Assembly (NCBI GenBank): GCA_001795615.1
Contig: MGKI01000014.1
Location: 69,380 to 133,379, forward strand
Source: Candidatus Yanofskybacteria bacterium RIFCSPLOWO2_01_FULL_42_49
GTDB taxonomy: Bacteria; Patescibacteriota; Minisyncoccia; 2-02-FULL-40-12; GWA2-44-9
DNA length: 64,000 nucleotides
Direction: 5' to 3'
Shown piece after piece: positions 13,973 through 47,708 of this stretch. The notes beneath the pieces are model-generated. The model was not told where the DNA came from. It ran no database searches and was given only the letters and a program-made list of their open reading frames with translations. Every line of letters begins with the position of its first letter. The stretch's first letter is position 1. A program made the translations under genes and the position numbers.

Positions 13973-13973
13973 C

Positions 13974-17306: not shown

Positions 17307-17315
17307 GTGGGATTT

Positions 17316-17436
17316 ATCCCGTTAGAGGTCCGACCCGCCTGAAAGGCGTGGTTCTCGGAGTGTGGGCATCCCCACTCCTGGGGAACTCTGTCGGCAGACG
17401 ACCCCGACTTGAGTCGGGGCGTCTTACCTCTAACGG
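17316..17436. ncRNA. GC-rich highly structured intercistronic element (candidate cis-regulatory RNA / sRNA / attenuator)
   Basis: A closing helix of 12 perfect bp (CCCGTTAGAGGT ... ACCTCTAACGGG) encloses CCGAC/GTCGG, a CGCC-TGAAA-GGCG hairpin, a GGAGTG/CACTCC hairpin and an AGACG-[CCCCGAC-TTGA-GTCGGGG]-CGTCT stem. The region is roughly 60% GC against AT-rich flanks. On the - strand it lies between the SDR stop (inside the helix) and the cupin start codon 11 nt away. On the + strand it is followed by ACCATATTTTTTT. Confidence 0.35.
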
Positions 17437-28758: not shown

Positions 28759-28790
28759 AAAAAAAATAAAAACCCTCTAATCTGAGGGTT
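28759..28790 (-). terminator. Rho-independent terminator of the radical SAM gene 28789-30369
   Basis: On the - strand, AACCCTCAGATTAGAGGGTT is followed by TTTATTTTTTTT. It overlaps the stop codon. Confidence 0.65.
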
Positions 28791-32691: not shown

Positions 32692-33741
32692 CTATAGTTG
32701 CTTCACCCTGTCTAGTAAATTTTTGGCTAAAATATGAGATTTCAAATAACTTTGATATAGCCTATAACCATTTTCAGCCACCCTTTCAGAGATTGAATAA
32801 TTATTCTTAACCCATAAGATCTTATTGGCTAAAGATCTGAAATCAGCCGGCTTACAAGTAATACAAGTTTCTCCATCCTTTAAAAGCTCGAGAATGCCAG
32901 TATTTGCAGCTGTCAGATATGGCAACTTCATAGCCAACGATTCGTAGGCCTTATGGGGAATAGTCCGCTGAAGACGTTCGTGGTCAGATAATTGGCCTAA
33001 ACTCACATGGCATTTCCCCATTAATATTCTTAGTTCTTCGGTCGGTAAAAAATCAAAAAAATATTCAATGTTATTTGGCCTTAATTCTTCGATCAAAACT
33101 TTTAGCTTACCGACCAGCTGACCGCCTACATGCATGATAAATCTTACGTCTTCTCCTTTAAGTAGTTCGGCTGCTCGAACCACATATTCTGCGCCGGTTT
33201 CAGGCTGTAACGCTCCCCGGAACAAAACTGTGAATTTATCAGGCTTATTTATGATTGGATCATAAAAAAACTTATCTTCATCAACGCCAATCCAACTTCT
33301 AAAAATTTTATTTTTAGAAACCTTAAATAACTTTTTAAAATACTCGGCTTGATTATATGACTCCACAACAGTTAAATTTGCAAAATGTACAGCCGCAAAA
33401 TCAAGCAGCCAATAATAAATAGCTTTCTTCGAAAAAGGGGAAGCTAACTCTCTGGAAACTATTAAACCTTCATATAATGAGCGAAATGCAACATAAATTA
33501 TTTTTTTATTGCAAAATGGGCGCATAAAAATTACCAGCAATGGACTGTCAAAGCCAATAAAAACATAATCTGTATCTGATTTATTTTTTCTAAAAAAACT
33601 TAGGGCCTCAAGATACCCGCGAACACCCCCGGATGCAACTCTGAACGACTCGACCCTGACACCATTCTCCTTCAATCCTTTTATATAAACGACATTTAAA
33701 GACGAGCCAACTCTAGTTCTGCTTATATATAATATTTTCAT
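32692..33741 (-). CDS. GT-B fold glycosyltransferase (GT4-like)
   Basis: The C-terminal block ...HKAYESLAMKLPYLTAANTGILELLKDGETCI is a GT4-type donor-binding region. It overlaps the upstream gene by 4 bp. Confidence 0.6.
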   Translation of the reverse strand: MKILYISRTRVGSSLNVVYIKGLKENGVRVESFRVASGGVRGYLEALSFFRKNKSDTDYVFIGFDSPLLVIFMRPFCNKKIIYVAFRSLYEGLIVSRELASPFSKKAIYYWLLDFAAVHFANLTVVESYNQAEYFKKLFKVSKNKIFRSWIGVDEDKFFYDPIINKPDKFTVLFRGALQPETGAEYVVRAAELLKGEDVRFIMHVGGQLVGKLKVLIEELRPNNIEYFFDFLPTEELRILMGKCHVSLGQLSDHERLQRTIPHKAYESLAMKLPYLTAANTGILELLKDGETCITCKPADFRSLANKILWVKNNYSISERVAENGYRLYQSYLKSHILAKNLLDRVKQL

Positions 33742-34514
33742 CTATTTTGTTTTAACAAACTCAACTCTTTCTGCCAATTATAATCCCCCCAATGTCTATA
33801 TCTCATCTTAATGTCCTCGTTTCTGTGGCCCGGATGACAACCAAGTTCAACAATTTTATCTGAATGTTCTTCGGCTAATTTTTTAGCTTTATCTATGTCT
33901 TTTTTGCCTAATTTACCGGCATTCACAAAACCGACAAAGTAATCGTTGCACTGCAGACCAGCCCTGCGTATCTTGTTCTTCGCCGCCGTTGACAAGAAAT
34001 TTAAAAATAACAGTTGAAGTTTTCTAAACAACTTGCCACCAGACAAATTAAACGGTTCATTAACAACTCTTATATACGGGATATTATACTCTATGGCCAA
34101 TTTTATGCATATATTCATGATCCCCGGCAACAAGTGCAAATGTTGATTGCCGTTTATAAAAGTTGGCTTTATTCCGGCCTGAATAACTTTTTTAATCTGC
34201 GCCTCAAGCTCTTGCCGAATATGATCTTTTTTAACCAGCCCTAAAATATATTTTAGAAAAAAAACACGATGATTTTTATACATTAACCCCCCAGAAACGA
34301 TCGACCTTTGTTCAACTAGATTTAAATGGGCTCCGATATTCTCAAGTCTCGCATCTAGAATTTGTTGGACGGCATCGTCAAACGCTTCCCCGTTAGCCAT
34401 TAAAGATGCCCCGCTGATTTTATTTTCTTTCAATAAAAAAATTATTCCGTCGTTAACGGACTCGTGGAGACCAAGGTCGTCAGCAATAATTTTTAAATTA
34501 GGGGGTTCGATCAT
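33738..34514 (-). CDS. YdjC/ChbG/HpnK-family carbohydrate deacetylase (NaxD-like candidate)
   Basis: N-terminal IIADDLGLHESVNDGI (ADDxG), and later LHLLP and CHPG blocks. Length is 258 aa and it overlaps the GT2 gene upstream. Confidence 0.7.
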   Translation of the reverse strand: MIEPPNLKIIADDLGLHESVNDGIIFLLKENKISGASLMANGEAFDDAVQQILDARLENIGAHLNLVEQRSIVSGGLMYKNHRVFFLKYILGLVKKDHIRQELEAQIKKVIQAGIKPTFINGNQHLHLLPGIMNICIKLAIEYNIPYIRVVNEPFNLSGGKLFRKLQLLFLNFLSTAAKNKIRRAGLQCNDYFVGFVNAGKLGKKDIDKAKKLAEEHSDKIVELGCHPGHRNEDIKMRYRHWGDYNWQKELSLLKQNR

Positions 34515-35484
34515 TCTCTAGATTTTTAGTTTCAGAAACTATATATACCGGGCGGCCTTTTATTTCGTTGAACATTTTATATAAGTACTCACCCATAATA
34601 CCAATGACCATAAGTTGAATACTGCCCAACGCCAGAACAACAATCGTTAAAGAAGAAAGACCCTCAATAAGATGTTCCGGATACAAGTATTTTTCTATAA
34701 CAACGGATAAGCCATAACCGATGCTCCCCAGAAAGATTACCAAACCTATCCAAAAAGAGATTCGGAGAGGAAAGGCGGAAAATGAGGTTACTCCGTTCAA
34801 AATAAAACTAAATAACCTTTTAACGGAGATTGGCTGGCCATATTTGCGGGCCCTTACTGCGTAAGGAACGTATTTTTTCTTAAAACCGACCCATTGAGCC
34901 AATCCTCTGAAAAATTTCTCTCTCTCGGGTAATTTTTTAATCACATCAACAACCCGTCTTTTATACAAAACAAAATCGCTGGCGTTTTTAAATTCAAGTC
35001 CTGTCATAGTGCTTAAAAATTTATAGATAGCCCTGCCCGCGACTTCCCTGAAAAAAGAATTTTGTTCATTGGTTATCCTCTCTCCGATAACAATATCGTG
35101 TCCTGCTTCGGCTTGTTTTATGAATTCTGAAATTACTTGTGGTGGATGCTGTAAATCGCTATCCATAGTTACCACCATTTCTCCGCTTGAAGCATCTATT
35201 CCGGCGCTTAAAGCCGCTTGATGCCTGAAATTCCTTGAAAAACGGATGATCTTGACCCTTGGGTCCTTGTCTGCGTATTCGTTCAAGATTTCCGAGGTTC
35301 TATCGCGAGAACAGTCGTCAACAAAAATTATCTCATAACTTTTACCGATAGAATCGCAAACAGAGTAAAGCTCCTTCATCAATTCCGGAAGGGACTTTTC
35401 TTCATTGAAAATAGGCAAAACTACCGATAAATAGATGGCCTTTGGTTGACTAATCATTTGTATAATTATACATAGCCAACCCAA
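34498..35484 (-). CDS. Polyprenyl-phosphate glycosyltransferase (GT2; ArnC/GtrB/FlmF2/DPM1-like) with C-terminal TM helices
   Basis: LSVVLPIFNEE, FVDDCSRDRT and MDSDLQHPP (DxD / QxxRW-region equivalents), plus two C-terminal hydrophobic helices. Confidence 0.8.
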   Translation of the reverse strand: MGWLCIIIQMISQPKAIYLSVVLPIFNEEKSLPELMKELYSVCDSIGKSYEIIFVDDCSRDRTSEILNEYADKDPRVKIIRFSRNFRHQAALSAGIDASSGEMVVTMDSDLQHPPQVISEFIKQAEAGHDIVIGERITNEQNSFFREVAGRAIYKFLSTMTGLEFKNASDFVLYKRRVVDVIKKLPEREKFFRGLAQWVGFKKKYVPYAVRARKYGQPISVKRLFSFILNGVTSFSAFPLRISFWIGLVIFLGSIGYGLSVVIEKYLYPEHLIEGLSSLTIVVLALGSIQLMVIGIMGEYLYKMFNEIKGRPVYIVSETKNLENDRTP

Positions 35485-35494
35485 GATTGTCTAG

Positions 35495-37192
35495 TCAGTT
35501 TATAGTCAGAGAACGGCAGTCAAAGATGTATGAATCTATATATTTATCAGTGAATTTTTTGTTCAGTTCGCATCTGGATATTAATTTCCAATACAAGCTG
35601 TTTTTGTCAATAGCCGGAAAATCAACTATCATATAGTACCCCCTGTGATAAGTGAGTCTTTGGCTGTAATCACGAGAAGGAGCTGTGTAAAATCTTCCTG
35701 TGTACTTATCTGCTATTTTTAAATAATAGACTCCCGCGTCATAATATGTAACAACATCGTTAATCTCTTCATCATTGACCACGCGCTCAACAGACGCTTT
35801 AGTAATATTGTTTACGCTACCATAAAAAGCGCCCATTAAATTTTCACTTGAAAGCAGGAGATTATAACCAACACCGAAAACAACAAAAAAGGCAATCGCT
35901 AATTTTTTCTTATTAAACAAAAGCCACAGAAAACCCACAGCCCATATCCACAAAACAAACTGCGCTGAAACATAAAATCCTATCGGCCCCGAACCTCCTG
36001 TCATAGGAATAAGAAAGTTAAAGTCCAGATCTTTGACTTTTTGCACATAGGCCTCCTTTGGGTTAAGGGGCACAATGTCGTGAGCGATAAAAAGAGTAAA
36101 GGCCAAAAGAACCGCAAAACCTAATATACTTAATAAAAGTCGTTTCTTGTCCAACCCTGAAAGCAATGAATAAATGACATGGCCGCTTATAATAACCGCC
36201 GGCGCTATTATGAACATAAAGTATCTCTCTATCGGAAGCCGGGCAAAGTCAAAAATTACAAGATAGAAAATAAAATTGAATAAAGTATAGATATACCAAA
36301 TACGATATTTTATGAAAAAATCTTTTTTTCCGCCGACGGAGACCCGGCTATGCACGGGTCCCTCTCCAGGCAAAGCGGATCCGCCTCCAGCAGAGAATAA
36401 TCCATACACCATCGGCAAAAATAAAAGCGGAGAGAACCAGATAAAAAACTTAACTAGGCGGAGAAGCAACTCAAAATAAGCTCTTGATGCAAAATCAAAT
36501 ATCTTAAAGTTGGTAGAATACTCTACAAATCTCGGATCGGTCTTTCCGTAAAATAAATAGAGCCCGGCAATAAAAACTCCTGAAATACCCAGGATCAGAC
36601 CCGCTCTTTTTATCTCCTGTGTAAATTTGCCCTTATCATACAAAGTCCACAGATACTCGATTGCCAACGCTCCGACAAAAATCACAAAACTCAACTTCGT
36701 TAACAAACCGGCAATTATCACCACGGCCAGCGGCAGAATAAATTTTTTATCGCCGTCCTTAACTGTTCTGATGTAAAAATAGTATGTTAAAAGAACAAAA
36801 AACGGCAAAACGGCGCCGTCAATGTCTATCATCAGGTTGGCGATAAGACCATAAACACTGATAACATAAAGACCCGATGAAAGATAAGCGATCTTTCTGT
36901 TATCGGTGATCTTTAGAGAAACCGCATAAATAAGAAGAAGATTTAAAATACCAAAAACAAAAGGTACTACCCTCAAGTTATCATAGCCAAACATCTTGCC
37001 GACCAGCGAAAGAGTACTCTGCATTATCGGCGGATGGGGAGAGTCAACTTCGCCGAATTCTGCCGTATATACTTGAGAAACCCACCTGTATTCATCCTGA
37101 TGATATAACTGGTCCAAGCCCAAAAATCTAGTGGCGATAAACAACAAAACCAACAGCCAAAGCCAGTAATTATTTTTTAGTATTACTGTCAT
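35495..37192 (-). CDS. GT-C fold polytopic membrane glycosyltransferase (ArnT/PMT/FlmK-like)
   Basis: 565 aa with more than 10 predicted TM helices. An acidic DE motif sits in the first extracytoplasmic loop (LYHQDEYRW), as in the GT39/GT83 families. Confidence 0.55.
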   Translation of the reverse strand: MTVILKNNYWLWLLVLLFIATRFLGLDQLYHQDEYRWVSQVYTAEFGEVDSPHPPIMQSTLSLVGKMFGYDNLRVVPFVFGILNLLLIYAVSLKITDNRKIAYLSSGLYVISVYGLIANLMIDIDGAVLPFFVLLTYYFYIRTVKDGDKKFILPLAVVIIAGLLTKLSFVIFVGALAIEYLWTLYDKGKFTQEIKRAGLILGISGVFIAGLYLFYGKTDPRFVEYSTNFKIFDFASRAYFELLLRLVKFFIWFSPLLFLPMVYGLFSAGGGSALPGEGPVHSRVSVGGKKDFFIKYRIWYIYTLFNFIFYLVIFDFARLPIERYFMFIIAPAVIISGHVIYSLLSGLDKKRLLLSILGFAVLLAFTLFIAHDIVPLNPKEAYVQKVKDLDFNFLIPMTGGSGPIGFYVSAQFVLWIWAVGFLWLLFNKKKLAIAFFVVFGVGYNLLLSSENLMGAFYGSVNNITKASVERVVNDEEINDVVTYYDAGVYYLKIADKYTGRFYTAPSRDYSQRLTYHRGYYMIVDFPAIDKNSLYWKLISRCELNKKFTDKYIDSYIFDCRSLTIN

Positions 37193-38093
37193 TTTTTTGG
37201 AGAATCAATTCTAACTCATCTTTAAGATTAGGCATTTTAAGGCCAAGTTTAGCGGCTTTATCAATATTAAACCACATCTCCTTGGGCCGAGCAGCAAAAT
37301 TTCCAGGCATATTATCAACAGAGATTATCTTGGCTTCACCAGAAAAATTAGGAAATTTACTAATAACCACCTGCCCTATTTCAGCTTTGGACAATCGATC
37401 CCTGCTTCCGATATGAAGAATCCCTTTTGACAGAACTTCTGGGACTTTTAACAACAGTCCTGCGAGAGTTTTAGCGCTTATCGCGTTAATATATACATCG
37501 CTAAAAAGGTTGAACGACCTATTGTTGCTAACTGAATCCACAAGCCACTCTATAAAATTAGCTTGGGGTCGGCCAATACTGTGAATACCAATGGGTACGA
37601 CCCTGACCACTATTCCTTGATTGTAAGCTAAAACAGCTTCTTCTCCCAACAACTTGGTCCATGAGTAAAAATTTTTAGGATCCGGCGTGTCGCTTTCTTT
37701 ATAGTTCCCTTTCACTCCAGAAAAAACGGAACCAGTTGATATGTATATTAATTTCGCCCCCTGCTTCTTTGCCAATTCGGTAATATTTCTCGTCCCCACA
37801 ACATTGACTCGCCAACAATCCTCTCTGTTTTTCTCGCACTTATCAATATTTGTCATTGATGCACAATGAAATATCGTATTGATTTTACCTATTTTCTTAT
37901 CTAAAAAATTAACGGCTTTGGCGACACCAATGTCGCATTTTAAGTTTACATAATCCTTATCAGTTAAATTTGGATTCTCGTTATAAGTACCGATCACACC
38001 ATAACCGCTTTTCTTGGCGCAACGAGTCAACTCCAAACCCAAAAGACCGCTTGCTCCGGTTACTAAAATTTTATTTTTTGTTGATCTTTTCAT
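37170..38093 (-). CDS. RmlD-like NAD(P)-dependent sugar-nucleotide reductase (dTDP-4-dehydrorhamnose reductase family), paralog 1
   Basis: KILVTGASGLLG Rossmann motif, length ~300 aa, and a conserved C-terminal block shared with 43949-44845. Confidence 0.6.
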   Translation of the reverse strand: MKRSTKNKILVTGASGLLGLELTRCAKKSGYGVIGTYNENPNLTDKDYVNLKCDIGVAKAVNFLDKKIGKINTIFHCASMTNIDKCEKNREDCWRVNVVGTRNITELAKKQGAKLIYISTGSVFSGVKGNYKESDTPDPKNFYSWTKLLGEEAVLAYNQGIVVRVVPIGIHSIGRPQANFIEWLVDSVSNNRSFNLFSDVYINAISAKTLAGLLLKVPEVLSKGILHIGSRDRLSKAEIGQVVISKFPNFSGEAKIISVDNMPGNFAARPKEMWFNIDKAAKLGLKMPNLKDELELILQKNDSNTKK

Positions 38094-38259
38094 TAAAAAA
38101 GTATTATCCGAATATTACTGTAAAAACTAAATTTTATCAACTGACAGAGAGAGACGCCGCTAAGGTATTGAGCCCGTTAAAGGAGCATGTGACAAATATA
38201 GTTAGTTATGTTAGAGTAATTCGAAATCGTTCTTAAACAACAAGGCGGAAAGGATAGCT

Positions 38260-39273
38260 ATGAAAAAAGACGTTCCGTCAATTTTGCTTGTTGGTGTAGG
38301 GTGGTGGGGCGGAAACCATTTGCGAATTTTGCTCAAGTTGCAAGCCATGAAGCTTTGCCGCTTGGTGGGCGTTCAGGCTAATAATCAGAACGTACTCCAA
38401 TACGTTGGCGGAGAATTTGGGGTCAAGACATTTTGCAATGATCAAGGACTAGAAGAAGCTGACGCTGTTGTTATCGCAACTCCAACGCACAACCACTTTG
38501 CAATAGCAGAGAAAGCGTTATTGGCAGGAAAAGATGTGCTTATAGAAAAACCACTGACCCAAACCCTAGAAGAAGCGTATAAGCTCAAAAAAATTCATGC
38601 CAATTCCTCGCAGATATTTATGGTGGGCCACACCTTTCGCTATAATCCGGCTGTGGATTGTGTCAAGAAACTTCTGTCAGATGGGGAAATAGGAAACATC
38701 CGATTTTTCCGAGGGCATTTCATGGGTCTTAGATCCAAAGAACAAGACGCTGGAATTCTCGCCACGGTTGCAATTCATTTTATTTACACATCAAATTATT
38801 TCATAGGCAGACTTCCAAAAAAGGTGTGGGCAAAAACAAATTACTTTCTGGATTCAAAACTAGAAGACCATTGCCTTGTACGGCTTGATTATAATCCGGA
38901 ATTTAGTCTTATTGAATCGGACTACTTTACTCCGGGCAAGTGGAGAACGTTTGATATCATCGGAACACAGGGAGCCATCTTCCTAGACGCACTTAACCAA
39001 AAAGTAGAATTGCACCAAAAAAGACACATATACACGGAATGTGGGTTTGAAGTATATGACGGAAATACAATGTATCCTAATTTAGAGTTTCAAGAACCCC
39101 TATATTTGGAACTTAGCCACTTCGTGAAATGTGTCCAACAAAGGACAGAACCTCTTACTGGGATTGAAGAGAGTATAAATGTTTTGGAAATTATTGAAGC
39201 AGCTTACGAATCGTCCCGTTCCGACCAAACAGTAATACTTGACACCCGGCCAACAACAGAAAGGAGAAGGTAG
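38260..39273 (+). CDS. Gfo/Idh/MocA-family NAD(P)-dependent oxidoreductase
   Basis: N-terminal ILLVGVGWWGGNHLR Rossmann fold and the EKPL motif (LIEKPLTQT). An AAAGGA SD precedes the start. Confidence 0.75.
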   Translation: MKKDVPSILLVGVGWWGGNHLRILLKLQAMKLCRLVGVQANNQNVLQYVGGEFGVKTFCNDQGLEEADAVVIATPTHNHFAIAEKALLAGKDVLIEKPLTQTLEEAYKLKKIHANSSQIFMVGHTFRYNPAVDCVKKLLSDGEIGNIRFFRGHFMGLRSKEQDAGILATVAIHFIYTSNYFIGRLPKKVWAKTNYFLDSKLEDHCLVRLDYNPEFSLIESDYFTPGKWRTFDIIGTQGAIFLDALNQKVELHQKRHIYTECGFEVYDGNTMYPNLEFQEPLYLELSHFVKCVQQRTEPLTGIEESINVLEIIEAAYESSRSDQTVILDTRPTTERRR

Positions 39274-40506
39274 ATGTCAAAGAAAAGCGTTCGTTGTCAA
39301 ATATGTGAAAGCACCACAAAGCAATTTTTAGACCTAGGCGAACATCCTCCATGCAACTTTCTAAACGAGCACGAACTGCAGCAGGAAATTTTGTACCCCA
39401 TGGTAGTCCATTTTTGCCCAGTGTGCAGTCTCGTACAATTAGGCAAACCTGTTAACCAGGAAGCGCTTTTTTTGCCTCATACTGGCTATCACCATATAGC
39501 CGCATTGTCATCAAGCTTCTCAAAACACCTTGATGTTCTGGCTTCTAAAACAGCAAAGAAATTTAATCTTAAGCCAAAAGATCTGGTAGTTGAGATCGGA
39601 GCAAACGACGGCGCCTTGCTTGAAGCGTTCCAAAAGAAAAATGTAAGAGTACTAGGAGTTGATCCGTCTGATATTGCCGAAATCGCCGCCAATAGAGGAC
39701 TCCCCGTCTTAAAGAAGTTCTTCAATGAGGAAATTGCATCTGAAATAGTCGACACCTGTGGCCAAGCAAGAATTATGACTGCATTAAATGTTTTTGCCCA
39801 CTTATCTTCGCTTCACTCTGTTGTAAGAGGAATTGAAAAATTACTTACCGCTGATGGAGTTTTTGTCAGTGAAAATGGTTACATATTGGATCTGATCAGA
39901 GATATGCAGTATGACTTCATCTATCAAGAACATCTGCGTTATTATTCCTTGCATGCATTAATTTACTTGTTTAACATGTCTGGTATGGATGTGTTTGATG
40001 TAGAACGGATCCCTGAACACGGCGGTTCCATAAGAGTATTTGCCTGCAAAAAAGGTGCTTATCGGATCTCGAATTCGGTAACAGTTCTCCTTAAAGAAGA
40101 GGTGCGATTCGGACTTAATACATTTGACACTTATATGGAATTTTCCAAAAAGGTCAAAGATCATCGAAAAAGTTTAAGAAAGATGTTGGAAAAAATTCGA
40201 GCAGAAGGCGGAACAATTGCCGGTCTTACATTTCCAGCCAGAGCAGAAACGCTTCTTACTTATTGCGGAATTGGTCCAAAAATAATTAGTTATGTTACCG
40301 AGTGGAGCGACATTAAAATTGGCAAGTTCACTCCGGGAACCCACATCAAGGTTGTGGACCAGGACATACTCTTCGGCGACAAAGCACCAGACTATGGCCT
40401 CATGCTATCCTGGCACATTCAAGAAGAGCTTATAGCTCGCTTTAGGAAAAACGGTTTCAAGGGAAAATTCATTATCCCCTTGCCGACACCGGCTATTATA
40501 TCCTGA
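39274..40506 (+). CDS. NDP-hexose C-methyltransferase (TylC3/Methyltransf_13-14 architecture)
   Basis: An N-terminal Cys4 zinc-ribbon CQIC...CNFL...CPVC is followed by the SAM motif VVEIGANDGALL and the family-typical C-terminal domain. Confidence 0.7.
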   Translation: MSKKSVRCQICESTTKQFLDLGEHPPCNFLNEHELQQEILYPMVVHFCPVCSLVQLGKPVNQEALFLPHTGYHHIAALSSSFSKHLDVLASKTAKKFNLKPKDLVVEIGANDGALLEAFQKKNVRVLGVDPSDIAEIAANRGLPVLKKFFNEEIASEIVDTCGQARIMTALNVFAHLSSLHSVVRGIEKLLTADGVFVSENGYILDLIRDMQYDFIYQEHLRYYSLHALIYLFNMSGMDVFDVERIPEHGGSIRVFACKKGAYRISNSVTVLLKEEVRFGLNTFDTYMEFSKKVKDHRKSLRKMLEKIRAEGGTIAGLTFPARAETLLTYCGIGPKIISYVTEWSDIKIGKFTPGTHIKVVDQDILFGDKAPDYGLMLSWHIQEELIARFRKNGFKGKFIIPLPTPAIIS

Positions 40507-40508
40507 TA

Positions 40509-40556
40509 TAAAACATCACCCCCACTCCACGAAACGGATCAGGGGGTTTTATGTTT
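40509..40556. terminator. Bidirectional hairpin between convergent genes
   Basis: AAAAC-ATCA-CCCCC...GGGGG-TTTT. The loop is long, so this is a weaker call. Confidence 0.4.
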
Positions 40557-40572
40557 ATATTGGCTCCGATAT

Positions 40573-41514
40573 TTATTCGCCTGCCGACATCTTCTTTATC
40601 TTCTTTCTTGCAATATCTATGCCATAAGCAAAGAAGTCATATCTCCTGGGGCTTGTAAAATGTTTCATAACTGTGTTTTCACCGGGCCTACCTTTAATTA
40701 TATATGTGTCGACTGGAAAAAAATCAAAATTAACCTGAGATATTAATGACCCCCAACCGGACATACCCACAAGATAGTCTTTAACTTCTCTTTTTGTGTT
40801 TCTAAAATAATTTACGAACATATCCAGCGTAAATTTTTTTCTATTAATTAATATGAGTCCGGAGTTCATAAAATCAGCATGCTTTTCTATTAACTGATGT
40901 CTTTGCTCATATTCCTTACTAACCATTAAATCATAGACCCCCTGACGAGAAACCAGGGCATCAAATTGACTTTTTCCGTTAACAAAATTGATAATCTCAT
41001 CGGGCCTCTTGAAGAAAAGTATATCCGTATCGCATATCATTACTTTTTTAGCGCTACTTAACAAGAAGAGGTCAAAAAACTCCAATATTACCGCATGCCC
41101 ACCACCCCTATACTTTCTTATATCGTCCGGCAAGCCGGGATATTTTTCAATAAGCCGATCCGCCTCAACCTTGAATAAAACCTTCAAATTTCTAAACCTC
41201 TTCTCTAAAACAGAAGCTGATTTTTTATTAAATGACCCGTCGTCGTGGACAATAATATTAGGGCATAATTTAGAAAAATACAAAAAAGATTTCAATGCCC
41301 ACTCCAACATTCTAATATCACTTTTTTGACACAGAACATGGATTTCAAAACCAGGATCAGCGGAACATTCCTGTCCGAGCAACTTGGGCAGAAACAGATG
41401 ACTAAAGAGTTTATTCTTAAAATAGTTGAAATAATCTATGGCATGATATTTCTGACTAAACAACCTCCTTATAAAAAAGAGCTCTATCTTTATTTTTTTA
41501 AATATAGCTAACAT
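40573..41514 (-). CDS. Uncharacterised protein, possibly a GT-A-like nucleotide-sugar transferase
   Basis: 313 aa. The call rests on an IVHDDGS segment resembling a GT2 DxD region. No other family signature was recognised. Confidence 0.3.
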   Translation of the reverse strand: MLAIFKKIKIELFFIRRLFSQKYHAIDYFNYFKNKLFSHLFLPKLLGQECSADPGFEIHVLCQKSDIRMLEWALKSFLYFSKLCPNIIVHDDGSFNKKSASVLEKRFRNLKVLFKVEADRLIEKYPGLPDDIRKYRGGGHAVILEFFDLFLLSSAKKVMICDTDILFFKRPDEIINFVNGKSQFDALVSRQGVYDLMVSKEYEQRHQLIEKHADFMNSGLILINRKKFTLDMFVNYFRNTKREVKDYLVGMSGWGSLISQVNFDFFPVDTYIIKGRPGENTVMKHFTSPRRYDFFAYGIDIARKKIKKMSAGE

Positions 41515-41605
41515 CGTTATTATTATTAAATATTTATTATTTTACTTGATTTGTTGTCTTCCCTTTGATACCATGCCACCATATCACAAGATTACATTTA
41601 AATAA

Positions 41606-42808
41606 ATGACCGGCATTACAACGGCGGGGAATGTCACTAAAATGGTAGATAAACATAAAAAAAACAACGATGTTAAGATCCTTAGAGATAACCCTAAACA
41701 AGTTGTCGGCATTATTGGGGGTGGTATTTTTGGAATTCTAACAGCTCTCGAAGTGGCGAAGAAGGGCTATTCAGTTATTATTTTTGAAAAAGAAAAAGAT
41801 GTCATAACGGGAGCATCGCTTGTCAACCATTGTAGGGTTCATATGGGCTATCATTATCCCAGAGATAAAAAAACTGTCACACAAAGCTTAAAAGCTAAAA
41901 CACCATTTGAAAATTTCTTTGGTAAATCGATAGTAAGAAAAATAAATAATTACTATATGGTCGCGAAGGAAGGAAGCATGACCGACCATAGAGATTTCTT
42001 GTCATTTTGTAAAAAAACAAACTTGCCACATAAAATATCATGGCCTTCTGGCTTAAAAATATCGAAAGAAAAAATAGCCGTTAGCGTCAAGGTGCCGGAA
42101 AAAGTTTTTGATGCTAACAGAAAAAGAGATTTTCTTCTTAAAAAAATATCGAGGGAAAAAAATATCACCCTACTGACAGATGCGGAGGTTGTAGACATCA
42201 AAAAAAGTAACGACGGATTTGTAGTAAGCCACGGATTAGGTGAAAACAAAAAAATTACCAACTGCACAGCCTTGGTAAATGCAACATACAGCGCGATAAA
42301 TCATATTAACAATCTGCTTGGCTTGCCGCTCCAAACATTTCAGTATGAGCTATGTGAATTGCCTGTGGCCCTTGCACCGTGGAAAGGTACCGGTTGGATG
42401 ATTATGGATGGACCGTTTTTCAGTGCAATGCCTTTTGGTTACTCAAAAAACCATCTTTTTTATGATGTTGAACTTTCTGTTTTAGAAAGAACCATCGGCA
42501 AAACTCCAAATTTCAAATTCGGAATAGATTACTATGATACTAAAAAAAGAAGGCTGGAAAGATTCAATAAATACAAAGAAAAGTGGAAATATTGGATTGG
42601 AGAAATTAAGGGTTGCAGATATCTTTATTCCATGTACACCACAAGGGTTGTTTTACCAAAAGTAGAAAAAACAGACATGCGCCCTACCATAATAAAAGAA
42701 CTTATGCCCGGTTTTTGGCAGATTTTTTCTGGAAAAGTTACTACCAGTGTACCAGGATCAATAGAAATTAGTAACAAAATCGATAGATTCCTAAAAAGAA
42801 AGTCCTAG
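41606..42808 (+). CDS. FAD-dependent oxidoreductase
   Basis: N-terminal dinucleotide-binding VVGIIGGGIFGILTALEVAKKGYSVIIFEKE. Length is 400 aa. Confidence 0.6.
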   Translation: MTGITTAGNVTKMVDKHKKNNDVKILRDNPKQVVGIIGGGIFGILTALEVAKKGYSVIIFEKEKDVITGASLVNHCRVHMGYHYPRDKKTVTQSLKAKTPFENFFGKSIVRKINNYYMVAKEGSMTDHRDFLSFCKKTNLPHKISWPSGLKISKEKIAVSVKVPEKVFDANRKRDFLLKKISREKNITLLTDAEVVDIKKSNDGFVVSHGLGENKKITNCTALVNATYSAINHINNLLGLPLQTFQYELCELPVALAPWKGTGWMIMDGPFFSAMPFGYSKNHLFYDVELSVLERTIGKTPNFKFGIDYYDTKKRRLERFNKYKEKWKYWIGEIKGCRYLYSMYTTRVVLPKVEKTDMRPTIIKELMPGFWQIFSGKVTTSVPGSIEISNKIDRFLKRKS

Positions 42809-43945: not shown

Positions 43946-43948
43946 TTT

Positions 43949-44845
43949 TTAATTATTCGAAATTTCCTTTAAAACTAGCCCCACTTCATCTTTCCAATCT
44001 GGCAAAGAAAAACCCATATCAGTAGCTTTTTGTACATTTAACCACATCTCATGCGGACGCAAAGCAACCTTTCCGGCTTGAGTTTTATTCACGCTTAACC
44101 TAGTTACTTTGCCGGAATAATTTGGAAACAGTTTTACTACCTCTTCCCATATTTGTGCCTTATTAACTCGGTTTTTGCTGCCTAAATGCAAAACGCCAGG
44201 CCTGAAATTATTAATAACATCGCCGATAATCAAAGCCAGAGTTGCAGTACTAATCGGATTTATCACCACATCCGTAAATAAGCTGAATGAGCGATTGTTT
44301 GACGCCATATCAACAAACCACTGCATAAAACTGGGATGAGCGCCCAGTGGTCGTTTGCCTATGGGATTTGCCCTTAAAACAAGGCCCTTTTTATATTTTA
44401 TGACAATTTTCTCCGCTTCATTTTTAGTTTTACCGTAATAGTTAACCGGATCAGTTTTATCATTTTCAACATAGTTGCCTTTTTTCCCAGAAAACACCAT
44501 CGGCGTAGAAATATAAATAAAATGAGCACCTAAAGATTCAGCCAAATCTAACAAATTTTCAGTTCCATAAATATTTACTTTACGGCAAATAGATTTGTTT
44601 AATTCGCAAAAATTAACATCTGTAACTGCGGCGCAGTGAATTATGGTTTGGATATTTTTAAACCAGCGGGGATGTACTTTTTCAGTTATATCAAGGCTAA
44701 CCTTGCTAATGTGTTTGCCGCTAGGAACAAATTCTTCGTTGGAATTATAAGCCGCCAGAACAGGAAATCCTTTTCTGGCTAAAATATCTGAGATTTTAGA
44801 GCCCAGCATTCCGCTGGCCCCGGTAATTAATATTTTTTGTTTCAT
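43949..44845 (-). CDS. RmlD-like sugar-nucleotide reductase, paralog 2
   Basis: KILITGASGMLG. It shares its architecture and a C-terminal block with 37170-38093. Confidence 0.6.
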   Translation of the reverse strand: MKQKILITGASGMLGSKISDILARKGFPVLAAYNSNEEFVPSGKHISKVSLDITEKVHPRWFKNIQTIIHCAAVTDVNFCELNKSICRKVNIYGTENLLDLAESLGAHFIYISTPMVFSGKKGNYVENDKTDPVNYYGKTKNEAEKIVIKYKKGLVLRANPIGKRPLGAHPSFMQWFVDMASNNRSFSLFTDVVINPISTATLALIIGDVINNFRPGVLHLGSKNRVNKAQIWEEVVKLFPNYSGKVTRLSVNKTQAGKVALRPHEMWLNVQKATDMGFSLPDWKDEVGLVLKEISNN

Positions 44846-46023: not shown

Positions 46024-46041
46024 GTGTGTCGAGGATTAATT

Positions 46042-46668
46042 TTAGGACCGCTTTGGTTTTAAATAAAAACAAACCTGAAAACCGAAAAGATTTGGCCAAA
46101 TATCACGCAATATTTTTCTTCCATTGGAAGAACATATCTCTTTTACCTCAAACCCAGAGTTTTCAGCGGTTTTTATAAAATCATTGACTGACCAGTATCT
46201 TAGATGCTCTTCTGGGGCAATTGCCCATTGCTTAGGAAATTTACCCGATAAAAGCTGGAGACGGAATTTCCAATAAGCAATGTTGGGTATTGATATCAGA
46301 ACACCTTTTTTAGCTATTCGGCCAACAACCCTAAGGACTTCCTCTGAATTAGGAATATGTTCAATAAATTCGGACATAATCACAAAATCAAAACTTTCTG
46401 GGTCAAATTTGCTTATATCGCTTGAAGCGTCAAGTTGAATAACTTTCAAACCCCGGCTTCTGGCTGAATTTAGAGCGGTTTCAGAAATATCAGCACCAGT
46501 ATAATCTACTTTTTTGTTACTAACCAAAAATTCCCCGAAATATCCATCGCCACAGCCAATGTCAAGAACTTTTGAACCGGATGGCATCCAATTAGAAAAA
46601 ATATGATAACGGGGTCGATTGCCTGATTTTCCTCTTTTTCGCCAATAATTCTCGTAGAAAATTTTCAT
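46042..46668 (-). CDS. Class I SAM-dependent methyltransferase
   Basis: VLDIGCGDGYFG (motif I). Length is 208 aa. Confidence 0.75.
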   Translation of the reverse strand: MKIFYENYWRKRGKSGNRPRYHIFSNWMPSGSKVLDIGCGDGYFGEFLVSNKKVDYTGADISETALNSARSRGLKVIQLDASSDISKFDPESFDFVIMSEFIEHIPNSEEVLRVVGRIAKKGVLISIPNIAYWKFRLQLLSGKFPKQWAIAPEEHLRYWSVNDFIKTAENSGFEVKEICSSNGRKILRDIWPNLFGFQVCFYLKPKRS

Positions 46669-47708
46669 CAGATTAACTTTTCAGTCCAAGTTTTAGGAGT
46701 TTTAGGGTGTTCAAGCTCTAAACTTTTCAAATAAAAAAACGGTTGCTTGCCTATAGATTTAGCCCATTTCATCATTTTTTCAACTCCATTTGACAAATCG
46801 ACTTTGGGCCTAAATCCTAAGAGTTTCTCAGCCACTTTATGCTCACAATAAGCATATTTAACCTCACGGGGTCGATCGGGTACATTCTTGGGAAGAATCG
46901 TTTTAGGAACATTTTTCATATCGCCATAAAATGTTTTTAATACAATTTCGGCTAATTCCTTTAAGGTTACTGGTTTATCAGAACCAATATTTATAATCTT
47001 GCCTTCGCATTCTTTTTTAAAAGCAGCTTTTACGGTAGCCGGCGCCACATCATCAATATAAGAAAATGCTCTTTTTTGCATCCCGTCACCATAAATATAA
47101 AAATTCCGACCGTGAAGTAAACTGTTAATAAAAATTCCGACAACATTTCTGTAGGGATCGGACAAATTTTGTCTGGGACCATACACATTATGTGGCCTGA
47201 TAATGACATATTTAAAACCATAAACATCAGACAAGACATGAGTCGTCTTTTCCATGGACATTTTAGAAATACCATAAATATCTTCCGGCTGAGGTATCAT
47301 ACTCTCCCTGAATGGAACTTGCTGCGCTCCGTATACACTCATTGAGCTGGTCAATATAATTTTCTTCAAACCGTGTTTGATGGCCGGAACGAGAAGATTT
47401 ATATAAGCGACAATATTTCTATCAATAGCGCTGAATGGGGTAAACTGGCTTCTGCCCTCGGTTGCGTCGGCAGCAAAATGAAAAATGATGTCTGGCTTTA
47501 GTTTTGCAATATAATTTGCAGTTTTTATTCGATCTCGTAAATCAAGTTTCGTGAAGAATTTTTTTTGCGAAACATTTCTCATAAATCCTCCCGAGAGATC
47601 ATCCACTCCATAAACTCGACAACCCATATTAAAAAGCAGATCATAGACATGACTCCCTATAAAACCAGCCGAACCGGTGACTAAAATTTTTGGTTTATTC
47701 AAGCTCAT
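46668..47708 (-). CDS. NAD-dependent sugar-nucleotide epimerase/dehydratase (extended SDR)
   Basis: ILVTGSAGFIGSH and YGISK (YxxxK). Confidence 0.8.
   Translation of the reverse strand: MSLNKPKILVTGSAGFIGSHVYDLLFNMGCRVYGVDDLSGGFMRNVSQKKFFTKLDLRDRIKTANYIAKLKPDIIFHFAADATEGRSQFTPFSAIDRNIVAYINLLVPAIKHGLKKIILTSSMSVYGAQQVPFRESMIPQPEDIYGISKMSMEKTTHVLSDVYGFKYVIIRPHNVYGPRQNLSDPYRNVVGIFINSLLHGRNFYIYGDGMQKRAFSYIDDVAPATVKAAFKKECEGKIINIGSDKPVTLKELAEIVLKTFYGDMKNVPKTILPKNVPDRPREVKYAYCEHKVAEKLLGFRPKVDLSNGVEKMMKWAKSIGKQPFFYLKSLELEHPKTPKTWTEKLI

What the first reader, a model, noticed from the sequence alone, without database searches (positions are those of the whole stretch)
37170..40506. C-branched deoxysugar module: RmlD-like reductases, Gfo/Idh/MocA oxidoreductase and TylC3-like C-methyltransferase
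The zinc-ribbon plus SAM-domain architecture (CQIC..CNFL..CPVC then VVEIGANDGALL) is characteristic of NDP-hexose C-3 methyltransferases of antibiotic deoxysugar pathways (mycarose/noviose type). It sits with two paralogous RmlD-like 4-ketoreductases (37170-38093 and 43949-44845) and a Gfo/Idh/MocA oxidoreductase. This predicts a C-methyl-branched 6-deoxyhexose in a cell-surface glycan, which is uncommon outside actinomycete natural products.
Basis: partly seen in the sequence, partly recalled or inferred. Interest (0 to 1): 0.55.

Follow-up and report, generated by a model that had tools for sequence, protein, structure and literature searches.

The report
Dehydrogenase-coupled sugar C-methyltransferase cassette
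A candidate-phylum bacterium (Candidatus Yanofskybacteria) carries a real sugar C-methyltransferase, but it is wired to a sugar dehydrogenase rather than to the classical deoxysugar pathway, which suggests an undescribed route to methyl-branched sugars for its cell-surface glycan.

Summary
The genes are real and sit at the stated coordinates. ORF 39274-40506 is a full-length TcaB9/KijD1/TylC3-type sugar C-methyltransferase (CMT) with its zinc cysteines and catalytic Tyr-x-Glu-His intact. ORF 38260-39273 is a Gfo/Idh/MocA oxidoreductase. ORFs 37170-38093 and 43949-44845 are paralogous RmlD-like SDRs.

- The 64-kb window has no RmlA, no RmlB and no 2,3-dehydratase.
- The RmlD-like genes score below the RmlD equivalog cut-off and are not conserved with the methyltransferase in related loci.
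- The conserved unit is Gfo plus CMT. The Gfo stop codon abuts the CMT start codon. The same pair occurs in 15 of 17 sampled members of a clade with 99-100% bootstrap support, and the two are fused into one 740-aa protein in archaea.
- The nearest relatives of this Gfo sit in UDP-GlcNAc 3-dehydrogenase/aminotransferase/acetyltransferase cassettes.

My best reading is that Gfo makes the keto-sugar, probably UDP-linked, and the CMT alkylates it. The product would then be a C-methyl-branched sugar that need not be a 6-deoxyhexose.

The family is also not rare outside actinomycetes: 2,909 clusters at 50% identity score E<=1e-30. I class this as a new variant of a known kind. The mechanism is inferred from context only.

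The parts
38260..39273 (+). Gfo/Idh/MocA NAD(P)-dependent oxidoreductase, the conserved partner of the methyltransferase. I propose it is an NDP-sugar (probably UDP-HexNAc or UDP-hexose) 3-dehydrogenase that generates the keto-sugar.
   Evidence: Pfam N- and C-terminal domains. Best NCBIfam model is NF040723, archaeal UDP-GlcNAc 3-dehydrogenase, at 2e-53 over the full length, but 182 bits against a cut-off of 450. E96-K97-P98 and H173 are invariant. The profile matches GnnA (7bvj) at 8e-25 over the full length, but KijD10 only at 2e-14 and only in the N-terminal domain. It belongs to a discrete clade of 56 clusters at >=51% identity, followed by a gap down to 36%.
39274..40506 (+). SAM-dependent NDP-sugar C-methyltransferase of the TcaB9/KijD1/TylC3 family: an N-terminal 4-Cys zinc domain, a class I SAM domain and a Methyltransf_14 C-terminal domain.
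   Evidence: C8, C11, C48, C51, H176, Y217, E219 and H220 are conserved in at least 95% of 90 aligned homologues. The ATG directly follows the Gfo TAG stop, and a GGAG Shine-Dalgarno sequence lies inside the end of Gfo.
38094..38259 (.). Divergent intergenic region between the RmlD-like 1/PMT_2 operon (- strand) and the Gfo-CMT operon (+ strand).
   Evidence: Sequence. Promoter-like hexamers occur on both strands (38189-38217 on +, 38140-38112 on -), but their number is no greater than in shuffled sequence.
37170..38093 (-). RmlD-like SDR 1. It is the first gene of the divergent operon and overlaps the PMT_2 gene. It is a possible ketoreductase for the methylated keto-sugar, but it is not a conserved member of the cassette.
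   Evidence: RmlD_sub_bind 3e-45. TIGR01214 scores 135 bits against a cut-off of 224. Best PDB match is 2ggs at 2.5e-32. In L090 and L087 methyltransferases occupy this position.
43949..44845 (-). RmlD-like SDR 2, a paralogue 42% identical to SDR 1, lying between two GT4 genes. It is a possible ketoreductase.
   Evidence: An orthologue (54% identity) sits at the same position in L013.
40573..41514 (-). Conserved 313-aa protein with no significant Pfam match, probably a GT-A-fold glycosyltransferase (HDDGS and DTD motifs). It is a candidate transferase for the branched sugar.
   Evidence: Sub-threshold hits only: Nucleotid_trans 1e-3 and Glyco_transf_8 1e-2. No predicted transmembrane segments. 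Homologues lie next to the pair in L013 (75%) and L090 (79%), and next to a CMT-less Gfo in L174 (38%). The actinomycete pair in L034 is flanked by two GT8 genes.
41606..42808 (+). FAD-dependent oxidoreductase (DAO family). It is conserved beside the pair only in the closest relatives, and its role is unknown.
   Evidence: Pfam DAO 7e-15. 84% identical to the L090 copy and 76% to the L013 copy. No informative PDB or NCBIfam match.
33738..37192 (-). PMT_2 (GT-C, 35495-37192), a GT2 with C-terminal hydrophobic segments (GtrB/ArnC-like, 34498-35484) and a YdjC deacetylase (33738-34514). Together they resemble a lipid-carrier glycosylation set, transcribed divergently from Gfo-CMT.
   Evidence: The same trio lies next to the Gfo-CMT pair in L087 and L090.
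46668..47708 (-). GalE-like NDP-sugar 4-epimerase. It is not a 4,6-dehydratase.
   Evidence: Best PDB match is UDP-glucose 4-epimerase 4zrm at 4e-47, against 1e-31 or weaker for dTDP-glucose 4,6-dehydratases. Its motif TSSMSVYG...YGISK lacks the Asp/Glu pair.

Best explanation
The core of the finding is a two-gene, translationally coupled cassette: a Gfo/Idh/MocA dehydrogenase (38260-39273) followed by a TcaB9-type SAM-dependent sugar C-methyltransferase (39274-40506).

Proposed mechanism:
1. Gfo oxidises a secondary hydroxyl of an ordinary nucleotide sugar to a ketone. By family resemblance the position is C-3, and the substrate is most likely a UDP-HexNAc or UDP-hexose.
2. The CMT deprotonates the carbon next to that ketone, using the conserved His220/Glu219/Tyr217 set, and transfers a methyl group from SAM to the resulting enolate or enediolate. 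This gives a C-methyl-branched keto-sugar.
3. The ketone is reduced again, either by one of the two RmlD-like SDRs present in this window or by the NAD(P)H left on Gfo.
4. A neighbouring glycosyltransferase passes the branched sugar into the cell-surface glycan of this Yanofskybacteria (CPR) cell.

Shown here: family membership of the CMT, the conserved Gfo-CMT coupling including a natural fusion, and the absence of the dTDP-6-deoxyhexose supply genes from the window. Inferred: the direction of the Gfo reaction, the nucleotide, the carbon that is methylated, the reductase and the acceptor.
For: CMT identity:
- Full-length matches to KijD1, TcaB9 and MtmC at 1e-65 to 3e-69, with the zinc cysteines and H176, Y217, E219 and H220 conserved.

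Coupling of Gfo and CMT:
- The Gfo stop codon abuts the CMT start codon.
- A Gfo orthologue (51-77% identity) lies directly upstream of the CMT in the window, L013, L090, L007, L087, L091, L088, L092, L089, L093, L009, L010, L175 and L176. The two are fused in L008, and independently sequenced as the 740-aa fusion P0121.
- These CMTs, together with L011 and L012, form a clade with 100/100 and 199/200 bootstrap support.
- At least 23 Gfo-clade clusters have a longest contig of exactly the same length as that of a CMT-clade cluster.

Direction of the Gfo reaction:
- Its best curated model is UDP-GlcNAc 3-dehydrogenase.
- Its profile matches GnnA over the full length but the 3-ketoreductase KijD10 only in the Rossmann domain.
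- Its nearest outgroup (36% identity, L177) sits in a Gfo/acetyltransferase/DegT aminotransferase/UDP-sugar dehydrogenase cassette.
- Of 80 more distant relatives, 43 have a DegT aminotransferase, 35 have a hexapeptide acyltransferase and only 1 has a CMT.

Analogy with other CMT clades:
- In them the gene directly upstream is an SDR of the 4-oxidising kind. It carries an S-S-E...YxxxK motif, and its best named PDB relatives are UDP-glucuronate decarboxylases and 4,6-dehydratases. Of the 87 CMT-selected loci scanned (15 of them Gfo-linked), 41 carry a UDP-glucose dehydrogenase homologue, and none of those 41 is Gfo-linked.

Absence of the classical route:
- No RmlA, RmlB or 2,3-dehydratase in the 64-kb window.
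- No RmlB-like and no UDP-glucose dehydrogenase gene in any of the 15 Gfo-linked loci.
- Minimal loci such as L092 and L175 hold only GT2 + Gfo + CMT, with or without a radical SAM/SPASM gene.
Against: - There is no biochemical evidence. All of this rests on similarity and gene context.
- Gfo/Idh/MocA enzymes run in both directions, and the superfamily includes NDP-hexose 3-ketoreductases (KijD10/TylC1) that act immediately before the C-methyltransferase in mycarose-type pathways. Adjacency and fusion alone fit that order too.
- The Gfo protein scores well below the curated cut-off for UDP-GlcNAc 3-dehydrogenase (182 against 450 bits).
- RmlA and RmlB could be encoded elsewhere in the genome, which I could not inspect.
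- A weak RmlC/FdtA-like cupin (16830-17306) in the window hints at 4-keto-6-deoxy sugar chemistry in this organism.
- Two archaeal members of the same CMT clade (L011, L012) have no Gfo and use SDRs plus a strong RmlD instead.
- One Gfo-clade member (L174) has no CMT.
- All characterised enzymes of the CMT family use dTDP-sugars (from my own knowledge), whereas the 3-dehydrogenase family uses UDP-sugars. One of the two partners must therefore have changed nucleotide preference.
Confidence: 0.5

Rival explanations
1. The CMT methylates C-3 of dTDP-4-keto-6-deoxyglucose (or its 2-deoxy derivative) made by RmlA/RmlB encoded elsewhere. Gfo acts as a ketoreductase, either a TylC1/KijD10-like 3-ketoreductase before methylation or a 4-ketoreductase after it. 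The RmlD-like SDRs finish the 6-deoxyhexose.
For: All solved relatives of the CMT act on dTDP-4-keto-6-deoxy sugars (molecule names, plus my own knowledge of TcaB9, KijD1 and MtmC). KijD10, a Gfo-superfamily 3-ketoreductase, is a detectable relative of the window's Gfo (2.4e-14). Two RmlD-family SDRs flank the pair. A weak RmlC/FdtA-like cupin and another SDR lie at 16830-18443. The archaeal clade member L011 has an NTP_transferase and a strong RmlD next to its CMT. Coxiella LPS offers a precedent for a TylCIII-like enzyme in a 6-deoxy-3-C-methyl sugar pathway (PMC3539893).
Against: The 64-kb window has no RmlA, RmlB or 2,3-dehydratase (PF03559), and no Gfo-linked locus has an RmlB-like gene. 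Gfo is much closer to UDP-GlcNAc 3-dehydrogenases than to KijD10. RmlD-like genes are missing from 11 of 15 Gfo-CMT loci, and both window copies fall below the RmlD equivalog cut-off. The SDRs in L011 and L012 carry T/S-S-E motifs and sit beside UDP-glucose dehydrogenase genes, which points to UDP-GlcA chemistry rather than RmlB chemistry.
Confidence: 0.27
2. The pair does not act on a nucleotide sugar. Instead Gfo oxidises a free or lipid- or glycan-bound polyol or sugar, for example an inositol, and the CMT methylates the resulting ketone, giving a C-methyl cyclitol or a post-polymerisation branch.
For: The best single PDB match of the Gfo profile is annotated myo-inositol 2-dehydrogenase (3cea, 5e-28). 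The pair lies next to a GtrB-like GT2/YdjC/PMT_2 lipid-carrier set in the window, L087 and L090.
Against: The CMT keeps the complete three-domain architecture of the NDP-sugar enzymes, including the C-terminal Methyltransf_14 domain. The Gfo protein's best curated model and its nearest outgroup contexts are nucleotide-sugar 3-dehydrogenases. A soluble GT2, which uses nucleotide-sugar donors, is the most regular third neighbour.
Confidence: 0.08

Closest known systems
TcaB9 (Micromonospora chalcea), KijD1 (Actinomadura kijaniata), MtmC, and TylC3/EryBIII: NDP-hexose C-3 methyltransferases of antibiotic deoxysugar pathways
   Same: The same three-domain architecture (4-Cys zinc domain, SAM domain, Methyltransf_14 domain). 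Full-length similarity at E 1e-65 to 3e-69. The catalytic His/Tyr-x-Glu-His residues are conserved. An enolate-alkylation mechanism next to a keto group is expected.
   Different: It is encoded in a surface-glycan locus of a CPR bacterium rather than in an antibiotic cluster. Its partner is a Gfo-type dehydrogenase rather than RmlB or a 2,3-dehydratase. Clade-specific substitutions lie beside the catalytic motifs: H74 where 91% of other homologues have Tyr, F215, L171, S178, and L318-T319-F320 in place of I-G-A. Substrate and regiochemistry are unknown.
UDP-GlcNAc / UDP-GlcNAcA 3-dehydrogenases (GnnA, WbpB/WlbA, archaeal NF040723 family)
   Same: The same fold and EKP/His catalytic motifs. This is the best curated model match (2e-53) and there is a full-length profile match to GnnA 7bvj. 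In those systems too, the keto-sugar product is handed directly to the enzyme encoded by the next gene.
   Different: The score is below the family cut-off (182 against 450 bits). The window's Gfo belongs to a discrete clade separated by a gap from 51% down to 36% identity. The consumer of the keto-sugar is a C-methyltransferase rather than a DegT aminotransferase plus an acetyltransferase.
KijD10 / TylC1 NDP-hexose 3-ketoreductases (Gfo/Idh/MocA superfamily) of the mycarose and digitoxose pathways
   Same: The same superfamily. In those pathways the Gfo-type enzyme acts immediately before the C-3 methyltransferase, so it is a precedent for functional pairing.
   Different: Only the Rossmann domain aligns (2.4e-14). 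The required 2,3-dehydratase and 4,6-dehydratase are absent from the window and from the related loci.
Virenose (6-deoxy-3-C-methylhexose) pathway proposed for Coxiella burnetii LPS
   Same: A TylCIII-like C-methyltransferase used for a cell-surface glycan outside the actinomycetes (PMC3539893).
   Different: The Coxiella proposal starts from a 4,6-dehydratase product (GDP- or dTDP-4-keto-6-deoxyhexose). Here no such dehydratase is present, and the partner is a Gfo dehydrogenase.

Membership tests
TcaB9/TylC3-type NDP-sugar C-methyltransferase (Pfam Methyltransf_13 + Methyltransf_14) | N-terminal four-cysteine zinc-binding domain | tested here: met
   PF08421 at 6e-15. C8, C11, C48 and C51 are invariant.
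TcaB9/TylC3-type NDP-sugar C-methyltransferase (Pfam Methyltransf_13 + Methyltransf_14) | Class I SAM-binding domain followed by the C-terminal Methyltransf_14 domain | tested here: met
   PF13489 at 1.3e-12 and PF08484 at 1.4e-41. The glycine-rich motif is VVEIGANDG.
TcaB9/TylC3-type NDP-sugar C-methyltransferase (Pfam Methyltransf_13 + Methyltransf_14) | Active-site His and Tyr-x-Glu-His residues. My recollection is that these are TcaB9 His181, Tyr222, Glu224 and His225; that numbering is from memory. | tested here: met
   H176, Y217, E219 and H220 are conserved in at least 95% of 90 homologues, including KijD1. They align with the corresponding KijD1 residues.
TcaB9/TylC3-type NDP-sugar C-methyltransferase (Pfam Methyltransf_13 + Methyltransf_14) | Full-length sequence similarity to experimentally solved members | tested here: met
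   KijD1 2.9e-69, TcaB9 9.7e-66 and MtmC 3.8e-65, covering residues 6-404.
TcaB9/TylC3-type NDP-sugar C-methyltransferase (Pfam Methyltransf_13 + Methyltransf_14) | Substrate is a dTDP-4-keto-6-deoxyhexose supplied by RmlA/RmlB | tested here: inconclusive
   The 64-kb window has no RmlA or RmlB, and none of the 15 Gfo-linked loci has an RmlB-like gene. The rest of the genome could not be searched.
TcaB9/TylC3-type NDP-sugar C-methyltransferase (Pfam Methyltransf_13 + Methyltransf_14) | Methylation at C-3 | not testable with these tools
   This needs NMR of the product. Family members also methylate C-5 (NovU, from my own knowledge).
RmlD, dTDP-4-dehydrorhamnose reductase (TIGR01214) | RmlD_sub_bind fold with a YxxxK catalytic motif | tested here: met
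   PF04321 at 3e-45 and 1.6e-43. YSWTK and YGKTK motifs.
RmlD, dTDP-4-dehydrorhamnose reductase (TIGR01214) | Score at or above the curated equivalog cut-off | tested here: not met
   135.1 and 141 bits against a cut-off of 224.
RmlD, dTDP-4-dehydrorhamnose reductase (TIGR01214) | Genomic association with rmlA, rmlB and rmlC | tested here: not met
   None in the window apart from a weak cupin 20 kb away (29.8 bits against a cut-off of 155.75).
UDP-GlcNAc 3-dehydrogenase (NF040723 / GnnA / WbpB type) | Gfo/Idh/MocA two-domain fold with the EKP lysine and a catalytic histidine | tested here: met
   E96-K97-P98 and H173 are invariant in alignment A2.
UDP-GlcNAc 3-dehydrogenase (NF040723 / GnnA / WbpB type) | Score at or above the curated cut-off | tested here: not met
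   181.8 bits against 450. Identity to the nearest context-supported member is 36%.
UDP-GlcNAc 3-dehydrogenase (NF040723 / GnnA / WbpB type) | Adjacent aminotransferase that consumes the 3-keto sugar | tested here: not met
   The downstream gene is the C-methyltransferase. The window's only DegT gene (7836-8981) lies 30 kb away in a nonulosonic-acid block.
KijD10/TylC1 NDP-hexose 3-ketoreductase | Close full-length similarity, and a partner 2,3-dehydratase (PF03559) | tested here: not met
   Only residues 15-154 align, at 2.4e-14. No ORF scanned in the window hits PF03559.
NDP-hexose 4,6-dehydratase (RmlB) as the identity of SDR 46668-47708 | Thr-Asp-Glu catalytic motif and best similarity to dehydratases | tested here: not met
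   The motif is TSSMSVYG. The best PDB match is UDP-glucose 4-epimerase at 4e-47, against 1e-31 or weaker for dehydratases.

The most novel reading that the evidence does not exclude
The Gfo-CMT pair is a self-contained, redox-neutral 'borrowed hydrogen' C-methylation machine. Gfo oxidises a common UDP-hexose or UDP-HexNAc, the CMT methylates the adjacent carbon through the enediolate, and Gfo returns the hydride. This would yield a C-methyl-branched but not deoxygenated sugar nucleotide with no 4,6-dehydratase and no separate reductase. It would be an undescribed route to branched sugars, spread through CPR bacteria, Elusimicrobia, Deltaproteobacteria and DPANN archaea, and fused into one polypeptide in some archaea.
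Probability: 0.25. Interest if true: 0.75.

Novelty: new variant of a known kind. Interest (0 to 1): 0.55.

Why it matters
C-methyl-branched sugars are known almost only from actinomycete antibiotics and a few LPS structures, and every characterised route starts from a 4,6-dehydratase product.

If a Gfo-type dehydrogenase supplies the keto-sugar here, three things follow:
- Branched-sugar biosynthesis has a second, simpler entry point that works on ordinary UDP-sugars.
- The cell envelopes of uncultured CPR, DPANN and Elusimicrobia organisms, whose glycans are chemically unknown, probably contain methyl-branched sugars.
- A compact two-enzyme (or single fused) catalyst becomes available for chemo-enzymatic C-methylation of nucleotide sugars.

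The result also warns against annotating every Methyltransf_13/14 protein as 'NDP-4-keto-2,6-dideoxyhexose 3-C-methyltransferase'. Most environmental homologues sampled here sit beside UDP-glucose dehydrogenase and UXS-like SDR genes or beside Gfo genes, not beside RmlA/RmlB.

Tried and rejected
1. A metagenome-contig scan with the Gfo alignment A2 was meant as the reciprocal test: does every clade member have a CMT downstream? I re-used those loci as an outgroup census. I ran the reciprocal test on three proteins instead: two have the CMT and one does not.
2. The first NJ tree suggested that the Gfo-linked CMTs are strictly monophyletic, with L011/L012 as sister. Bootstrapping rejected this (1/100). 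L011 and L012 nest inside the clade, which as a whole has 100/100 support.
3. Attempts to read the TcaB9 and KijD1 structure papers for sugar-contact residues failed because the papers are not held. Residue numbering for TcaB9 is therefore from memory, and the methylated carbon could not be addressed.
4. Three literature searches found no paper describing a Gfo/Idh/MocA-C-methyltransferase pair. The library covers open-access papers only, so this is weak evidence of novelty.
5. PmdC (9azo), a high-ranking PDB match of Gfo, turned out to be a lignin-pathway CHMS dehydrogenase and is uninformative.
6. I tested whether the DAO-type flavoprotein (41606-42808) is a UDP-galactopyranose mutase like the Glf gene next to the actinomycete pair in L034. 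It shares only the FAD-binding motif, so I rejected the idea.
7. I considered SDR 46668-47708 as the missing 4,6-dehydratase and rejected it.
8. There are no tRNA genes or signs of a mobile element around the cassette, and no notable GC deviation.

Full report
**Observation**

The coordinates hold three ORFs:
- 37170-38093(-), 307 aa
- 38260-39273(+), 337 aa
- 39274-40506(+), 410 aa

Pfam assigns them as follows:
- The first to RmlD_sub_bind (3e-45).
- The second to GFO_IDH_MocA, N- and C-terminal domains.
- The third to Methyltransf_13 (6e-15), Methyltransf_23 and Methyltransf_14 (1.4e-41).

The second RmlD-like ORF, 43949-44845(-), is also real (1.6e-43) and is 42% identical to the first.

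The exact proteins occur on 19 public contigs. They belong to Candidatus Yanofskybacteria bacterium RIFCSPLOWO2_01_FULL_42_49, a Parcubacteria/CPR organism, where NCBI calls the methyltransferase a hypothetical protein.

**Setting**

The whole 64-kb window (about 38% GC, no tRNA genes) is one glycan locus. It contains:
- at least 14 glycosyltransferases, plus Wzy_C/TPR proteins;
- a nonulosonic-acid block (NeuB, a cytidylyltransferase, DegT, HisH/HisF-like genes);
- a carbamoyltransferase;
- two B12-radical SAM enzymes;
- a GT2/YdjC/PMT_2 trio.

I scanned the window's ORFs of at least 120 aa against Pfam, leaving out three that lie inside or overlap longer ORFs (6038-6436, 52978-53613, 62767-63153). 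No scanned ORF matches NTP_transferase (RmlA), a 4,6-dehydratase or the 2,3-dehydratase family PF03559. The only dehydratase candidate, SDR 46668-47708, is GalE-like. Its best PDB match is UDP-glucose 4-epimerase at 4e-47, and its motif TSSMSVYG...YGISK lacks the Asp/Glu pair.

**The methyltransferase**

It matches KijD1 (2.9e-69), TcaB9 (1e-65) and MtmC (4e-65) from residue 6 to residue 404. In an alignment of 90 homologues, C8, C11, C48 and C51 (zinc) and H176, Y217, E219 and H220 (active site) are conserved in at least 95%.

The family is not rare, however. There are 2,909 representatives of 50%-identity clusters at E<=1e-30. At least 548 genome loci carry it across CPR, DPANN, Elusimicrobia, Planctomycetes, Acidobacteria, Omnitrophota and others.

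**The conserved partner**

I mapped neighbours in 80 genome loci and 10 metagenome contigs. The CMTs closest to the window's (51-77% identity) always have an orthologue of the window's Gfo gene directly upstream on the same strand. This holds for L013, L090, L007, L087, L091, L088, L092, L089, L093, L009, L010, L175 and L176.

In the archaeal locus L008 the two are one 740-aa ORF, with Gfo domains at residues 7-326 and CMT domains at 339-734. An independent 83%-identical fusion, P0121, also exists. In the window the Gfo TAG stop is followed at once by the CMT ATG, and a GGAG sequence lies inside the end of Gfo.

These 15 CMTs, plus two archaeal ones (L011, L012), form a clade with 100/100 and 199/200 bootstrap support. 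On the Gfo side, 56 clusters share at least 51% identity with the window's protein, and the next hit drops to 36-37%. At least 23 of the 56 have a longest contig of exactly the same length as that of a CMT-clade cluster.

There are exceptions:
- L174 has the Gfo gene but no CMT.
- L011 and L012 have the CMT but no Gfo gene.
- A distant actinomycete pair also exists: L034, Streptosporangiaceae, 43% identity for each protein. It is flanked by GT8 genes, an MFS transporter and a UDP-galactopyranose mutase gene.

**What the Gfo enzyme does**

- Its best curated model is the archaeal UDP-GlcNAc 3-dehydrogenase (2e-53 over the full length), though at 182 bits it falls below the 450-bit cut-off.
- A clade profile matches GnnA (7bvj, UDP-GlcNAc 3-dehydrogenase according to the preprint read) at 8e-25 over the full length. 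It matches the NDP-hexose 3-ketoreductase KijD10 only in the Rossmann domain, at 2.4e-14.
- The nearest outgroup (36% identity) lies in a cassette of Gfo, a hexapeptide acetyltransferase, a DegT aminotransferase, a UDP-sugar dehydrogenase and a nucleotidyltransferase.
- Among 80 more distant relatives, 43 loci have DegT, 35 have the acyltransferase and one has a CMT.

The window's Gfo is therefore an offshoot of the keto-sugar-forming 3-dehydrogenases. In this offshoot a C-methyltransferase has taken the place of the aminotransferase as consumer of the ketone.

**The same logic in other clades**

In 39 other CMT loci the gene directly upstream is an SDR with an S-S-E...YxxxK motif. Its best named PDB relatives are UDP-glucuronate decarboxylases (1e-41) and 4,6-dehydratases (1e-38). 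These are enzymes that oxidise C-4.

I scanned 87 CMT-selected loci, 15 of them Gfo-linked, for supply genes:
- 41 contain a UDP-glucose dehydrogenase homologue, and none of those 41 is Gfo-linked.
- Only 10 contain an RmlB-like gene.
- Only 7 contain an RmlA-like gene.

L028 has an FAD oxidoreductase upstream of its CMT. CMT-SDR fusions also exist (P0130, P0131, P0154, P0148). The general rule appears to be 'a keto-forming oxidoreductase, then the CMT'. The classical dTDP-6-deoxy context is the minority among these sampled loci.

**The RmlD-like genes**

Both score below the RmlD equivalog cut-off (135 and 141 bits against 224). An RmlD-like gene occurs in only 4 of the 15 Gfo-linked loci.

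RmlD-like 1 is the first gene of the divergent PMT_2/GT2/YdjC operon. In L090 its position is taken by a methyltransferase, and L087 likewise has a methyltransferase and no RmlD-like gene in that operon. They are plausible reductases for the methylated keto-sugar in this organism, as a strong RmlD is in L011 and L012. They are not part of the conserved unit. Minimal loci (L092, L175) hold only GT2 + Gfo + CMT, with or without a radical SAM/SPASM gene. That leaves open the possibility that Gfo itself re-reduces the product.

**Mechanism proposed**

Step 1 is inferred. Step 2 rests on family-level knowledge of the TcaB9 mechanism. Steps 3 and 4 are inferred.
1. Gfo oxidises a UDP-hexose or UDP-HexNAc, probably at C-3.
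2. The CMT forms the enediolate next to the ketone and transfers a methyl group from SAM. A 3-keto/4-hydroxy sugar and a 4-keto/3-hydroxy sugar give the same 3,4-enediolate, so methylation at C-3 or C-4 (or at C-2) cannot be decided from sequence.
3. The ketone is reduced, either by an RmlD-like SDR or by the NAD(P)H left on Gfo.
4. The sugar is transferred by a neighbouring glycosyltransferase. Candidates are the conserved 313-aa GT-A-like protein, the GT4s, or the GtrB-like GT2 followed by the PMT_2 lipid-carrier route.

Clade-specific substitutions lie next to the catalytic motifs of the CMT: H74 where other homologues have Tyr, F215, L171, S178, and L318-T319-F320 in place of I-G-A. These fit a changed substrate pocket but prove nothing.

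**Rivals**

The classical dTDP-4-keto-6-deoxyhexose route, with Gfo as a ketoreductase, remains possible (confidence about 0.27). Three points keep it open:
- The rest of the genome could not be searched.
- KijD10/TylC1 set a precedent for a Gfo-type enzyme acting just before the CMT.
- A weak RmlC/FdtA-like cupin lies at 16830-17306.

A non-nucleotide substrate such as an inositol is a minor alternative (about 0.08).

**Verdict**

The real unit is a Gfo dehydrogenase plus a TcaB9-type C-methyltransferase. I found no description of this pairing in three literature searches of an open-access library. I class it as a new variant of a known kind. The mechanism rests on context only, and the interest is moderate.

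Noticed in passing
L007-L086 (genome loci of CMT homologues), e.g. L011:3315-10200 and L047:8933-11209: Most environmental CMT homologues outside the Gfo-linked clade have a UXS/ArnA-like SDR (S-S-E...YxxxK motif) directly upstream, and 41 of the 87 CMT-selected loci scanned carry a UDP-glucose dehydrogenase homologue. This suggests C-methylation of a UDP-4-keto-pentose derived from UDP-GlcA. I know of no description of such a pathway.
   Followed up: partly
window 28789-30369 and 30485-32614 (- strand): Two large B12-binding radical SAM proteins lie in the same operon as GT4/YdjC/GT2/PMT_2. Similar B12-radical SAM genes recur beside the Gfo gene in L007, L090 and L174. They could be cobalamin-dependent C-methylases acting on the same glycan.
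   Followed up: no
window 33738-37192 (- strand); L087:1-3757; L090:2334-7101: A GT2 with C-terminal hydrophobic segments (GtrB/ArnC-like), a YdjC-family deacetylase and a PMT_2 GT-C transferase recur together next to the Gfo-CMT pair. This resembles an ArnC/ArnD/ArnT-type lipid-carrier glycosylation with deacetylation.
   Followed up: partly
L174:3901-5993 (Parcubacteria MAG GCA_019662005.1): This is a Gfo-clade member (63% identity) with no C-methyltransferase. It still lies next to a homologue of the 313-aa GT-A-like protein (38%), a GtrB-like GT2 (49%), a B12-radical SAM gene and an amine-oxidase-type flavoprotein. The dehydrogenase can therefore work with other partners.
   Followed up: partly
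L009:11248-13250; L010:11270-13293; L175:2772-4828: A conserved radical SAM/SPASM protein (74-90% identity) and a conserved soluble GT2 (54-58% identity) accompany the Gfo-CMT pair in the Elusimicrobia-type subclade. Together they form a four-gene cassette.
   Followed up: partly
window 5279-15672 (+ strand): A nonulosonic-acid-type block. It contains a NeuB/CTP_transf_3 fusion (9091-10950), a second NeuB with a SAF domain (11513-12583), a DegT aminotransferase, a HisH/HisF-like pair (12576-13972), a GNAT acetyltransferase and several ORFs with no Pfam match (6752-7852, 13974-15173).
   Followed up: no
window 16830-18443 (- strand): A small cupin with weak RmlC/FdtA-like similarity (about 1e-8, far below the cut-offs) lies next to an Epimerase-family SDR. 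This is the only hint of 4-keto-6-deoxy sugar chemistry in the window.
   Followed up: no
window 38260-48738 compared with L013:82-12289: There is near-complete synteny, with 47-77% protein identity, between this Yanofskybacteria locus and a MAG labelled Saccharibacteria. The shared order is Gfo, CMT, GT-A-like, DAO, GT4, RmlD-like 2, GT4, MetW-like methyltransferase, GalE-like SDR, GT4. This suggests lateral transfer of the block among CPR lineages, or mislabelled bins.
   Followed up: no
P0130, P0131 (765 aa), P0154 (850 aa), P0148 (1181 aa); many 500-1100 aa hits: C-methyltransferase domains are often fused to SDR domains, and in one case to an RmlC-like cupin. Fusion to the partner redox enzyme is a recurrent theme in this family.
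   Followed up: no
window 55463-57724 (- strand); L093:4338-6926: A Wzy_C (O-antigen ligase/polymerase-like) domain is fused to C-terminal TPR repeats. The fusion is present both in the window and beside another Gfo-CMT pair.
   Followed up: no
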